Shown piece after piece: positions 21,001 through 24,000 of a stretch of 64,000 bases of DNA. The position numbers were made by a program. Each line of letters opens with the position of its first letter. The first letter of the stretch is position 1. The stretch lies in assembly GCF_053078305.1 (NCBI RefSeq), contig NZ_CP166875.1; one strand, given 5' to 3'. This DNA comes from a plasmid.

Positions 21001-24000
21001 CAGCCGTGTTCAGGGCGCGATTCTGGTACATACCTGACTGTAATCATCCCTACGAACTACTCTTTGCACCAGAAACGCGCAGGAGTGTTTTAGCGTGTCT
21101 CCGGCGTGATGTCGAGTTGTGCGGTAATGAGTGAGCGAAAAAAATCCCCTGGATTACAGGGGGAACCCATGATCAGACTTTGAAGTTTATTTGTTATTTG
21201 ATGGAATGAGCACGAATCCCGGAGATGACGTTCAGGTGGCAGGAAACGCGCTCAGACGCTTTCTAACGCACTTTTTTGCATTGGGCAATGGTTTTGTATG
21301 TTTTGGTGGGTTCAGGCCGTCAGAGACGTTTTGAGCGCGTTTCTGGCGCTTGCTGCTACTGCCAAACCATCCCCATGGCCAGTTGATGCCAGAAACGCGC
21401 AGGAATTTTGTAGCGCGTCTCCGGTCCCTGATCAATGAATTCCCTGTCATTAACATGCGTTTACCCGGAAACGCGCCCTGATGTTCTATCGTATCGCGGG
21501 AACGGTGTCGAGGGTGTCGGGGCAAAGCCCTGACCAGGTGGTAATCGTATAGCCGTGCGTGCGCGGTTATACGATTACACATCCTGTCCCGGAATCAGGA
21601 TTGTTTTTCGCGCACAACTGCGGCAAATTCACCCCGTTGCGATTGCAACAATGGAAATATCAAAACTACGAGAATTAATTAGCCATTTGCTACCCCTTGG
21701 CCTGGCCTCCACCAGTCACGGGGGATTTTTTCGCCTGTTCTGATTGTCTTTTGCTGATGGTTACGGCAGATTGGAAAAGAGCGCATTTGTGGTGCTCTCT
21801 CCAAAATAATATTTCTCATTACTCAAACTCTGATGGCTTCCCCCTGTAATCCAGGGGGATTTTTTAATTTATCGCTATGCTTCGTAATTCATTCAGAATA
21901 CAGACAGTATGGTTAATCAGTTTTTCATCATTTTTTCGGTGTTTGCCCTATCCTGCATCAGAACGCTAAAAACAGGAATCTCTTTATGACGAATCCTCCA
22001 TTTCAGGATTTTTTATGTGGCGTCTACTACATGCGATCCGTTTTGGTGAACCGTTAGTTATATATTGGTTATATGTTAGTTATATCTTAGTTATACTTTT
22101 GCTGCGCGTCAGTTACAGAGGCGTTTTGAGGGTAAATTCTGGAGGCACGTGACCGACTGTATACAAAATGCTGGCGCATTTTGATACGTCGACGTGCCAA
22201 AGGGGACGCCCCTTTGAAACCCCGTCAGAATTAAAACCGGCCTGTCTTTTTACAATATTCAGCTCTGGCTATACACCAACTTATATTTTCTCCTTTGGCA
22301 TAATGAAGCGCATCATTCCATTTTTTCCATGCTCCAATGTAATCACCTTCACGCTCCAGTCTGACAGCTTCGTTTGCGGGTGAAAAATATTTATTTTCTA
22401 AATAAATTGCTTTGTCCTGATTCATACTCGTATTTGTATTTTTATTGGATTTAGAAAGAGCGAGCCTGTCGGGTTAATACATATTGGCATGACTGTTGAT
22501 ATATCAGCCCAACTGCACGCTCGTAATCGTTTTAACGTGATTTTCGCAACATGGCAATCCGGGTTCATCTGTCCGGTAATCAATAAAAACCGTGCGAAAA
22601 ACGGGACAGGATGTGGCCATTAATGCTAATGTATGCATACATTAGTATTAATGGCCCTGACAAATACCAGGCATCCGGTCTCAGGATGCCTTGATTCTTG
22701 CCTGGTAGATGCGCTTTACCCGTTCAATTTCTGCCAGCGTTGCGGACCAGTGTAGTTCGGCGGCATGACGATATCTGGCAGCCATTTTTTCCACCATCTC
22801 CGGATTGCTGTCCGCGCTGCGGTGCTGACGCCCCTTCTCCCCAAAAACTTCAACAACCAGCCACTGGCTTCCTGTTCTGCCGAACAATGCCTTGCACAAA
22901 CGTCTCACAGTCAGCGGGGTTAAATCTGGATCGGGATCGTAGGCAGTGGTAGCAAAAATAAAGCGCAGCATTTCTGATGTCTTGTAACGCTTTACGGCAG
23001 CTGCCAGACGTGCGGCGCGTTGGGGTGCTTCCCAGCGGTCGTCACTGTAATTAGCAACTTCAGCCAGATAATCCTTTTCAAGGTTTTCAGCCGTGTAACA
23101 CCTGCCGCCTAAAAAAAACCGCATGGCCTCCCTGGTTTTGTCTCTCACATATCATCCCTCATTAATGCTAATGTATGCATACATTAGCATTAATATCTGA
23201 CAGCAACAAGCGGCGAAGACTACCCCTAATCAAGTACATTTCTTGCATTGTACTATTTCATGCCCTACAATGTAGTAACGTACCTATATACATCAAAAGG
23301 CAACAGCATGAAGATTACAACCCTATCCAGTCGGGAACTTAATCAAGATGTAACTCGAGCCAAACGCGCCACGAATTATGGTCCAGTATTTATTACTGAT
23401 CGGGGTAAAACCGCACATGTACTTCTTAGTATCGAAGAATACCGAAAATTGACGCAACAACGACGAACTCTCATTGACATTCTGGCGATGCCCGATGCTG
23501 ATGCAGTTGAATTTGAACCGCCTCGTATTACGGTTAGTTTAAAACCTGCGGAGTTTTTATAGTGTATATTCTTGATACTAATGTTATCTCTGAGCTACGG
23601 AAGGCTCGGACAGGACGTATAGATAATAATGTTGCAAAATGGGCATTGCATACAGATGCGGCAGATTTCTTTATTTCTGTTATTTCCATAATGGAACTTG
23701 AACAGGGAATATTACAAGTTGAACGTCGAGATATGCGACAAGGGATTATGCTACGTTCTTGGATGGATCAGCATGTGTTACCAGCGTTTTCTGATAAGAT
23801 ACTTCCTGTAGATACTGCGGTTGCATTACGTTGTTCTCGTTTACATGTTCCCGACAGGCGCAGTGAACGAGACGCATTGATCGCAGCAACGGCGCTGGTA
23901 CATGGGATGACGGTTGTAACCAGAAATGTTGGTGATTTTGAATTAACCGGAGTATCAATTATTAATCCCTGGGCTTGATATCGCTTCCCTTCTTCTAGGG

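What the first reader, a model, noticed from the sequence alone, without database searches (positions are those of the whole stretch)
22618..23194. 34-bp perfect palindrome in three copies, two of them bracketing a 155-aa orphan gene
cattaatgctaatgtatgcatacattagcattaat(g) occurs at 22618, 23160 and 38605. Copies 1 and 2 flank the hypothetical gene 22681-23148 on both sides; copies 2 and 3 are each followed by ctgacagcaacaagcggcg and sit next to a toxin-antitoxin/exonuclease module. A palindrome this long and this exact is unlikely by chance; it could be an operator for a dimeric regulator, a recombination or nuclease site, or the joint of a small mobile cassette.
Basis: seen in the sequence. 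Interest (0 to 1): 0.5.

Follow-up and report, generated by a model that had tools for sequence, protein, structure and literature searches.

The report
Conserved palindrome pair bracketing plasmid yadA
The palindrome is a strongly conserved 32-bp DNA site that flanks an uncharacterised small basic protein gene (yadA) on both sides in many enterobacterial plasmids; the upstream copy sits inside the gene's promoter, so it is most likely the protein's own operator, and no paper found here describes it.

Summary
The three copies are real and non-random, but only copy 2 is a perfect 34-mer. Copy 1 has one mismatch and copy 3 is perfect over 32-33 bp. The shared core is the 32-mer TTAATGCTAATGTATGCATACATTAGCATTAA.

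The "orphan" is YadA (R64/ColIb-P9 name), a family with no Pfam, NCBIfam, PHROG or PADLOC model and no structural relative. In homologues down to 41% identity, found by protein alone, the palindrome lies 11-15 nt before the start codon and again just after the stop. Where synonymous sites are saturated (28% identity), the palindromes stay 86-91% identical.

A -35-like TTG sits 15-17 nt before the upstream copy in 17 of 20 independent contexts. This places a -10 (TAATGT) inside the palindrome. The upstream copy is therefore promoter plus operator. The 19-mer shared by copies 2 and 3 carries that -35.

Copy 3 is the yadA-less "empty site" allele in a second, IncK2/Z-type replicon region of the window. 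That allele is rare: 7 PLSDB plasmids against about 365 filled.

Solo copies also occur in IncX1 and other plasmids. The site is almost confined to plasmids and absent from the phage collection. It is not a Xer site, attC, REP/RAYT element, terminator or Rfam family.

Best reading: a YadA autoregulatory module. YadA binding is inferred, not shown.

The parts
22618..22653 (.). Palindrome copy 1 (core 22620-22651, one mismatch at 22646). This is the downstream site of the yadA module, starting 28 nt after the stop codon.
   Evidence: Equivalent downstream sites occur in 69 of 82 modules.
22669..22691 (-). GC-rich hairpin overlapping the yadA stop codon, terminator-like. It is specific to this allele of the yadA 3' end.
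22681..23148 (-). yadA: 155 aa, pI 9.6, all-alpha, no known domain.
23160..23195 (.). Palindrome copy 2 (core 23162-23193, perfect 34-mer 23161-23194). This is the upstream site, ending 13 nt before the GTG start. It is the proposed operator and overlaps the core promoter.
23181..23186 (-). Predicted -10 hexamer TAATGT of P_yadA (core positions 8-13). The TSS is predicted near 23174.
   Evidence: Inference. T8, A9 and T13 are invariant in the upstream sites.
23204..23209 (-). Predicted -35 hexamer TTGTTG of P_yadA. It lies inside the 19-mer (23197-23215) shared with copy 3.
   Evidence: TTG at this offset in 17 of 20 independent contexts, against a 4.5% background.
23308..23978 (+). vapB/vapC (Phd-family antitoxin and VapC toxin), divergent from yadA. 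It replaces the yacAB-exonuclease block of the canonical arrangement. It is a neighbour, not part of the module.
38605..38640 (.). Palindrome copy 3 (core 38607-38638). This is the 'empty site' allele: exonuclease-side promoter flank, one palindrome, then the canonical distal flank, with no yadA.
38650..38655 (-). -35 TTGTTG of the yadA-type promoter retained at the empty site. It now faces the small membrane ORF.
38164..38547 (-). 127-aa ORF with an N-terminal hydrophobic helix. It is the gene that follows the downstream palindrome in IncI1/IncK plasmids. It has its own extended -10 (TGGTATAAT, 38576-38584 on the minus strand).
   Evidence: It is unannotated in the related records.
38710..40151 (-). 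DnaQ-like 3'-5' exonuclease (38710-39558), yacB (39604-39885) and yacA (39882-40151). This is the canonical block upstream of the yadA site, downstream of repA (41059-41931).

Best explanation
The palindrome is the cognate DNA site of the protein it brackets. The unit is [TTGnnn -35] - 10-11 nt - [32-bp dyad site containing the -10 TAATGT and the start point] - 13-15 nt with a Shine-Dalgarno sequence - yadA (about 155-170 aa, basic, all-helical) - [second dyad site within about 40 nt of the stop]. YadA, presumably as a dimer or higher oligomer, binds the GCTAATGTA-N4-TACATTAGC dyad. At the upstream copy this occludes the -10 and the start point, which gives autorepression. The downstream copy has no -35. 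It would serve as a second anchor for looping, as a roadblock or insulator, or as control of the next gene. Solo copies (IncX1, SRAP-gene and higBA contexts, and copy 3 here) are either scars of yadA loss by recombination between the two 32-36-bp repeats, or extra sites reachable in trans. In this window, copies 1 and 2 with yadA are one such module, cut off from its exonuclease block 19 bp beyond the palindrome. Copy 3 is the yadA-less allele in a second, IncK2/Z-type replicon region. Shown: the anatomy, the conservation, the promoter signal and the empty/filled polymorphism. Inferred: that YadA is the binder, that binding represses, and the role of the downstream and solo sites.
For: (1) The canonical IncI1/IncK/IncF arrangement already has two palindromes around yadA.
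(2) Loci found by protein alone at 41-57% identity (L022, L023, L024, L154, L156, L157, L158) all carry the site upstream and downstream. More distant homologues at 31-39% identity keep GCTAA-N12-TTAGC variants.
(3) In 69 of 82 full-length modules both sites are present. The gap from site to start codon is 11-15 nt in 54 of 56.
(4) For module pairs below 55% amino-acid identity, the ORF is 55% identical at nucleotide level and four-fold sites are 28% identical. The palindromes are 86-91% identical.
(5) TTG lies 15-17 nt upstream of the upstream site in 17 of 20 distinct contexts. The other flank classes give 1/17, 0/19 and 2/23, solo flanks give 4/57, and the background is 4.5%. In at least 5 contexts yadA is divergent from its upstream neighbour, so it needs its own promoter.
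(6) Substitutions are mostly unpaired, so the primary sequence is what is kept, not a hairpin.
(7) YadA has pI 9.6 and a near-invariant basic helix, APQRAARLSAAVKRYKTS.
(8) The site is almost confined to plasmids: 1508 plasmid places against 14 chromosomal, and none in the phage collection.
Against: There is no direct evidence that YadA binds DNA. It has no HTH, RHH or other known DNA-binding fold. A fused-dimer AlphaFold run gave pTM 0.46, so it gives no support for a dimer. Solo sites stay conserved on plasmids that lack yadA: IncX1 sites are 100% identical while their flanks are 88% identical. That fits a host factor or another binder as well as it fits YadA acting in trans. The predicted hexamers are weak matches (TTGTTG, TAATGT) and the consensus scanner did not call a promoter. 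Most loci were collected by searching for the inner 18 bases, which inflates conservation there. The unbiased set is only 7 families.
Confidence: 0.55

Rival explanations
1. Mobile or recombination cassette. The palindromes are crossover sites with conserved arms around a variable 4-8-bp centre. A site-specific recombinase acts on them: YadA itself, a neighbouring tyrosine recombinase, or a host enzyme. The yadA-plus-one-palindrome unit then excises and inserts at solo palindromes, much as pdif modules or integron cassettes do.
For: There is an exact filled/empty polymorphism at one locus, with copy 3 as the empty allele. Solo palindromes occur in unrelated backbones. Variation is concentrated at the centre, as in the spacers of recombination sites. 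A tyrosine recombinase gene lies directly after pal-yadA-pal in L140 and L156. Tyr148 is invariant, alongside invariant Arg and Lys residues.
Against: Empty alleles are rare: 7 against about 365 plasmids, in two plasmid groups of about 85 kb and about 87 kb. RecA-type deletion between 32-36-bp direct repeats explains them. No context shows both a solo and a filled state except the canonical one. No inversion of yadA was seen among 24 canonical loci. The window's junction is 19 bp outside the site, and that 19-mer is the promoter -35. The YadA fold matches no recombinase, nuclease or HUH enzyme. Most plasmids carrying the site have no dedicated recombinase next to it. The site is not a Xer site.
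Confidence: 0.17
2. RNA-level element. The palindromes act as hairpins in the transcript, one before the Shine-Dalgarno sequence and one after the stop. They would work as mRNA stabilisers, RNase III processing sites, or targets of YadA as an RNA-binding autoregulator.
For: The sequence folds into a 14-17-bp stem with a z-score of -2.2 to -5.6. The sites sit at the two ends of the cistron. Some symmetric double changes occur at positions 1/32, 2/31 and 5/28.
Against: The predicted promoter starts transcription inside the palindrome, so the 5' hairpin would not be in the mRNA. Most substitutions break pairing: 36 non-wobble mismatches plus 9 A.C, against 21 G.U and 7 compensated. The primary sequence is conserved far beyond what pairing needs. 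Solo sites occur in either orientation and outside transcription units. There is no U-tract and no terminator call. There is no real Rfam match.
Confidence: 0.1
3. Binding site of a host or other plasmid factor, such as a nucleoid protein or global regulator. It would mark or insulate plasmid modules. yadA would merely be the gene most often found between two such sites.
For: Solo sites stay conserved on IncX1 and other plasmids that lack yadA. The site occurs across many genera.
Against: The coupling to yadA is tight and position-specific, including the promoter embedding, over saturating divergence. By inspection (no scan was run), the site matches none of the E. coli regulator consensus sequences I could recall (LexA, Fur, CRP, ArgR, IHF, Fis). 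Distant YadA homologues have correspondingly altered sites that keep only GCTAA-N12-TTAGC.
Confidence: 0.12
4. No function: a recently duplicated stretch, or the operator of the adjacent VapBC or YacAB toxin-antitoxin module.
For: Copies 2 and 3 share a 19-23-bp flank and both lie near TA modules.
Against: The site is conserved where four-fold sites are saturated. It occurs with yadA in contexts that have no vapBC or yacAB. It lies 110 nt from the vapB start, outside the vapBC promoter.
Confidence: 0.03

Closest known systems
Autoregulated plasmid DNA-binding proteins with dispersed palindromic operators (for example KorA/KorB of IncP-1, ArdK/StbA of IncW, omega of inc18); comparison from my own knowledge
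   Same: A small basic plasmid protein whose gene is preceded by a dyad-symmetric site overlapping its promoter. Further copies of the site occur elsewhere on the plasmid or on other plasmids. The location is in the replication/maintenance region.
   Different: There is no sequence or fold relationship. The site is much longer (32 bp, 22-bp inner core) and is placed on both sides of the gene. No partner ATPase or regulon has been defined. Binding has not been shown.
Operator pairs that act by DNA looping (lac O1/O2, gal OE/OI, deo); from my own knowledge
   Same: Two identical sites lie a few hundred bp apart (514-556 bp here), one at the promoter and one downstream.
   Different: Here the second site lies beyond the stop codon and brackets the regulator's own gene. 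Looping is only a conjecture.
pdif (XerC/XerD) modules of Acinetobacter plasmids and integron attC cassettes; from my own knowledge
   Same: One small gene is bracketed by short palindromic sites. The unit appears in many plasmid contexts, solo sites exist, and there is an empty/filled polymorphism.
   Different: The site does not match Xer arms: 8-11 mismatches of 22, which equals the background. It has no GTTRRRY core and no extrahelical bases. The bracketed gene is always the same family rather than varied cargo. The upstream site is a promoter.
REP/BIME elements flanking RAYT (TnpA-REP) genes, and IS200/IS605 ends; from my own knowledge
   Same: A single-copy gene of about 150-170 aa is flanked by copies of a palindrome of about 35 nt. 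Solo copies are dispersed elsewhere.
   Different: YadA has no HUH motif, no Y1 transposase Pfam hit and no such fold. The palindrome is AT-rich and confined to plasmids. Copy numbers are 1-3 per replicon.

Membership tests
Xer recombination sites (dif/cer/psi/pdif) | 11-bp XerC arm, 6-8-bp spacer and 11-bp XerD arm matching the consensus | tested here: not met
   The best match at each copy has 8-11 mismatches of 22. That equals the distribution for random 86-nt windows (mode 9-10). A true cer core scores 0 elsewhere in the window.
Integron attC (59-be) | R''/L''...L'/R' imperfect dyad with a GTTRRRY core site and extrahelical bases, plus an IntI integrase and attI nearby | tested here: not met
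   The site is a perfect or near-perfect dyad with no bulged bases. No GTTRRRY was found on reading the sequences. No integrase is annotated in the neighbourhood of the related record; the window itself was not scanned for IntI or attI.
REP/RAYT and IS200/IS605 | HUH-Y1 transposase (Pfam Y1_Tnp) encoded between the hairpins | tested here: not met
Tyrosine or serine site-specific recombinase system | A recombinase of known fold encoded with the site, and partner sites sharing an identical central region | tested here: inconclusive
   YadA has no recombinase fold. A tyrosine recombinase gene is adjacent only in L140 and L156. The centres of the two flanking sites are the same in 13 modules, inverted in 19 and different in 19, out of 51.
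Intrinsic (Rho-independent) terminator | GC-rich stem followed by a U-tract | tested here: not met
   The scanner did not call the palindromes. The stem is AT-rich and has no T-run.
Any described RNA family (Rfam 15) | Covariance-model score at or above the gathering threshold | tested here: not met
   There were only sub-threshold generic hairpin hits (mir-155, 26.7 bits against a threshold of 56).
Promoter-embedded operator of an autoregulated DNA-binding protein | The site overlaps -35, -10 or +1 of the regulator's own promoter | tested here: met
   A conserved TTG lies 15-17 nt upstream in 17 of 20 contexts. This places a TAnnnT -10 at core positions 8-13. It is a prediction only; the TSS has not been mapped.
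Promoter-embedded operator of an autoregulated DNA-binding protein | The encoded protein binds the site specifically | not testable with these tools
   This needs EMSA, footprinting or ChIP. The only indirect support is co-inheritance and the protein's basic, conserved helix.
VapBC or YacAB toxin-antitoxin operator | The site co-occurs with, and lies in the promoter of, the TA operon | tested here: not met
   The site follows yadA into contexts without these TA modules. In the window it lies 110 nt upstream of vapB, beyond the vapBC promoter.

The most novel reading that the evidence does not exclude
YadA is a sequence-specific DNA-binding protein of a new fold. Its 32-bp sites form an inter-plasmid network: solo sites on IncX1, IncF and other plasmids would be read in trans by YadA from co-resident IncI/IncK/IncF plasmids. 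Alternatively, with its invariant Tyr148, Arg47 and Lys53, YadA is itself a new kind of DNA-processing enzyme that moves or rearranges modules at these palindromes. That would make pal-yadA-pal a selfish cassette analogous to RAYT/REP or pdif modules, but in the main resistance and virulence plasmids of Enterobacterales.
Probability: 0.15. Interest if true: 0.8.

Novelty: new variant of a known kind. Interest (0 to 1): 0.6.

Why it matters
IncI1, IncK, IncF and IncX1 plasmids carry much of the transmissible resistance and virulence in E. coli and Salmonella. Their replication-proximal regions are treated as well mapped. Yet here is a protein family with no domain model, paired with one of the most conserved non-coding sequences on these plasmids. 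It is present in about 12% of complete E. coli genomes, and no description of it turned up in the searches made here.

If YadA is a regulator, it defines a new operator-repressor pair, possibly with cross-plasmid reach. It would also be a compact, portable 32-bp protein-DNA recognition pair.

The identical 32-36-bp repeats are also ready-made crossover points. They help explain the mosaicism around replication regions, including the three copies on this hybrid plasmid. Because a palindrome has no orientation, those copies could in principle mediate either deletion or inversion of the 15-kb segment between them.

Tried and rejected
- Pfam, NCBIfam, PHROGs and PADLOC on YadA and its homologues gave nothing.
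- A PDB sequence-profile search gave only a marginal hit to an RPC6 winged-helix region (E = 0.013), not pursued.
- A fused-dimer AlphaFold run, meant to test dimerisation, gave pTM 0.46 and is inconclusive.
- Full-text searches for the sequence and for yadA/yacC found no description.
- The consensus promoter and terminator scanner did not call the sites. The promoter signal emerged only from comparing 20-22 independent contexts.
- Xer-site matching was at background level.
- The idea that outer-arm variants (position 5/28) track YadA clades was rejected, because the variants mix within clades.
- The idea that the palindrome edge is the recombination breakpoint in the window was rejected for copy 2, where the break is 19 bp outside.
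- The phage collection gave no match.
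Full report
**Observation**

The motif is present at 22618-22653, 23160-23195 and 38605-38640. No match is expected in shuffled sequence. It is not perfect in all copies. Copy 1 has a C->T change at 22646. Copy 2 is a perfect 34-mer. Copy 3 is perfect over 32-33 bp. The shared core is the 32-mer TTAATGCTAATGTATGCATACATTAGCATTAA.

Copies 1 and 2 bracket the minus-strand ORF 22681-23148. Copies 2 and 3 are followed by the same 19-mer. Copy 2 neighbours vapBC. Copy 3 neighbours a DnaQ-like exonuclease, then yacB, yacA and repA.

**What the window is**

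Region 21.5-24.5 kb is 98.6% identical to IncFIA/FIB/FIC plasmids of human E. coli. Region 38344-44000 is 99.2% identical to the backbone of an IncK2/Z plasmid. The three copies therefore belong to two related replicon-proximal regions on one mosaic plasmid.

**The canonical arrangement**

In IncI1/IncK and IncFIC/FII plasmids the order is repA - yacA - yacB - exonuclease - palindrome - a gene of about 155 aa - palindrome. The alignment shows that the upstream copy was missed by megablast only because its centre differs (TGTG or TGCG instead of TGCA). So the bracketing seen in the window is the normal state.

Copy 3 is exactly the exonuclease-side flank, one palindrome and the canonical distal flank. 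This is an empty site. In PLSDB this allele occurs in only 7 plasmids of about 85-87 kb; the one inspected (pDW54_2) is IncK2/Z. About 365 plasmids carry the filled form.

**The gene**

The gene is "YadA" in the R64/ColIb-P9 nomenclature. It is unrelated to the Yersinia adhesin of the same name. Homologues occur in Escherichia, Salmonella, Klebsiella, Citrobacter, Serratia, Dickeya, Edwardsiella, Xenorhabdus, Photorhabdus and others. There are 127 clusters at 50% identity.

**Coupling of site and gene**

A scan of one genome per species found 13 loci. Several carry palindrome pairs 514-546 bp apart around divergent yadA genes, in Citrobacter, Phytobacter and two metagenome-assembled genomes.

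Loci fetched by exact protein sequence are not biased by the site. At 41-57% identity (L022, L023, L024, L154, L156, L157, L158) every one has the site 11-15 nt before the start and again at or just after the stop. At 31-39% identity the site is altered but keeps GCTAA-N12-TTAGC. One homologue (L033) has none.

A metagenome scan for the inner core returned 120 loci. Together with the earlier loci and the window, these hold 222 sites: 82 upstream of yadA, 83 downstream and 57 solo. Of 82 full-length modules, 69 have both sites, 6 have only the upstream one, and none has only the downstream one.

**Selection**

For module pairs below 55% amino-acid identity, ORF nucleotide identity is 55% and four-fold-site identity is 28%, which is saturated. 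The upstream and downstream palindromes are 86% and 91% identical.

Variation is concentrated at the centre (positions 15 and 18) and at outer positions 1, 2 and 5. The commonest variant has an asymmetric centre, TACGCATA (61 sites). The perfect palindrome accounts for 46 sites.

Most substitutions are unpaired: 36 non-wobble mismatches, 9 A.C, 21 G.U and 7 compensated. So the primary sequence, not base pairing, is what is maintained.

One caveat applies. The metagenome loci were collected by the inner 18 bases. The 14 sites from protein-ascertained loci still average about one mismatch in those 18 positions.

**The promoter**

I aligned 22 distinct upstream contexts at the palindrome. The otherwise unrelated flanks share T-T-G at -16/-15/-14. 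In the tally over 20 de-duplicated contexts, TTG starts 15-17 nt before the core in 17 of 20. On the other three flank classes the counts are 1/17, 0/19 and 2/23. On solo flanks the count is 4/57. The background is 4.5%.

With a 17-18-nt spacer the -10 falls on core positions 8-13, TAATGT. Its T, A and final T are invariant. Transcription would then start inside the right arm.

In at least five contexts yadA is divergent from its upstream neighbour, so it needs its own promoter. The palindrome and this TTG are the only conserved sequences available there.

In the window the -35 is at 23204-23209 and the -10 at 23181-23186, both on the minus strand. That is why copies 2 and 3 share it. It is also why the break with the canonical sequence at copy 2 lies 19 bp outside the palindrome rather than at its edge.

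**Solo sites**

Solo sites lie downstream of a relE/higA-type TA module in IncX1 plasmids. They lie after parMR in an IncFIA/FIC plasmid. They lie next to SRAP (YedK-like) genes, and next to higBA in Photorhabdus.

They are more conserved than their flanks. In IncX1 the site is 100% identical against 88% for the flanks. In the SRAP context the figures are 93% against 74%. Ascertainment bias applies here too.

Only the canonical context shows both filled and empty states.

**Distribution**

The site occurs in 647 PLSDB plasmids and in 681 of 5426 complete E. coli genomes. There are 1508 places on plasmids and 14 on chromosomes. The phage collection has none.

**Excluded**

- Xer sites: mismatch counts equal the background, while a true cer core elsewhere in the window scores 0.
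- attC, REP/RAYT and IS200/IS605: see the membership table.
- Intrinsic terminators.
- Rfam families.
- TA operators: the site follows yadA, not the TA modules.

No paper in the library contains the sequence or discusses the element.

**Interpretation**

The best-supported reading is an autoregulatory module. The upstream site is promoter plus operator. The downstream site is a second binding site used for looping, as a roadblock, or to control the next gene. Solo sites are scars or targets reached in trans.

That YadA is the binder is an inference from co-inheritance, position and the protein's character. It is not demonstrated, and the fused-dimer model was uninformative.

The cassette or recombination reading keeps some weight. 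The filled/empty polymorphism is exact, the centre is variable, Tyr148 is invariant, and two homologues are followed by tyrosine recombinase genes. However, empty sites are rare and only one locus is polymorphic. No inversions were seen, and the promoter logic accounts for the shared flank. These points favour sporadic homologous deletion between 32-36-bp repeats.

**Verdict**

This is a real, strongly selected and apparently undescribed protein-plus-site module of enterobacterial plasmids. The claims "perfect in three copies" and "orphan" are inaccurate.

Noticed in passing
window 20129-20158 (minus strand) and 32946-32975 (plus strand): There is a perfect ColE1 cer core (GGTGCGTACAATTAAGGGATTATGGTAAAT) and a second copy with one mismatch, in inverted orientation about 12.8 kb apart. 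Each sits inside longer inverted repeats (I2 and I4). They bracket the segment that holds the ANR gene, the yadA module, vapBC and a sugar-diacid/glycerate kinase cluster. This suggests that small Col-type plasmid DNA was incorporated into the large plasmid.
   Followed up: partly
window 21578-22615: The ANR (AraC-negative-regulator family) gene 22231-22425 lies in a unit of about 1 kb bounded by 31-nt imperfect inverted repeats (CACATCCTGTCCCG...). The unit is about 95% identical to small ColK/ColE1-type plasmids. The homology stops at 22615, 2 nt from palindrome copy 1.
   Followed up: partly
window 24186-24393 vs 40094-40302; 24795-25238 vs 38734-39094: A second, rearranged copy of the repA-distal/oriR-proximal region (95% identity) and an inverted 3' fragment of the exonuclease gene lie to the right of vapBC. 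These are remnants of a second RepFII-type replicon-proximal block.
   Followed up: no
window 38164-38547 (minus strand); extended -10 at 38576-38584: This is an unannotated ORF for a small protein with an N-terminal hydrophobic helix. It is 127 aa here and 77 aa in IncI1-like locus L013. It directly follows the downstream palindrome in IncI1/IncK plasmids, behind a TGGTATAAT extended -10. That places the palindrome at about -38 to -69 of this putative promoter.
   Followed up: partly
L004 3998-4039 (IncI1 pCVM22462): The downstream copy in IncI1 plasmids is a perfect 42-bp palindrome (CATCA + core + TGATG). The IncX1 solo copies are perfect over 36 bp.
   Followed up: no
L003, L007, L018, L023, L043, L058 and others, 11-12 nt (30 nt in L023) outside the palindrome: A second recurrent motif, TAAACGTACAATAATTTC, always reads away from the palindrome. 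It accompanies downstream or solo copies in several contexts: 23 of the 58 hits among all loci lie within 60 nt of a palindrome. Its role is unknown.
   Followed up: partly
L140 7009-7980 and L156 650-1621: In two homologue lineages at about 45% identity, a tyrosine recombinase gene lies immediately after pal-yadA-pal. L140 also has a third palindrome 1.5 kb away.
   Followed up: no
L068, L087, L094: Some modules carry two palindromes in tandem, 77-83 bp apart, upstream of yadA, plus the downstream one.
   Followed up: no
L016, L071, L107 and about 10 further metagenome loci: Solo palindromes lie next to SRAP (SOS-response-associated peptidase, YedK-like) genes. Symmetric T5A/A28T variants (TTAAAGC...GCTTTAA) are present. 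The site is downstream of the gene in some loci and about 115 nt upstream of it in L107.
   Followed up: partly
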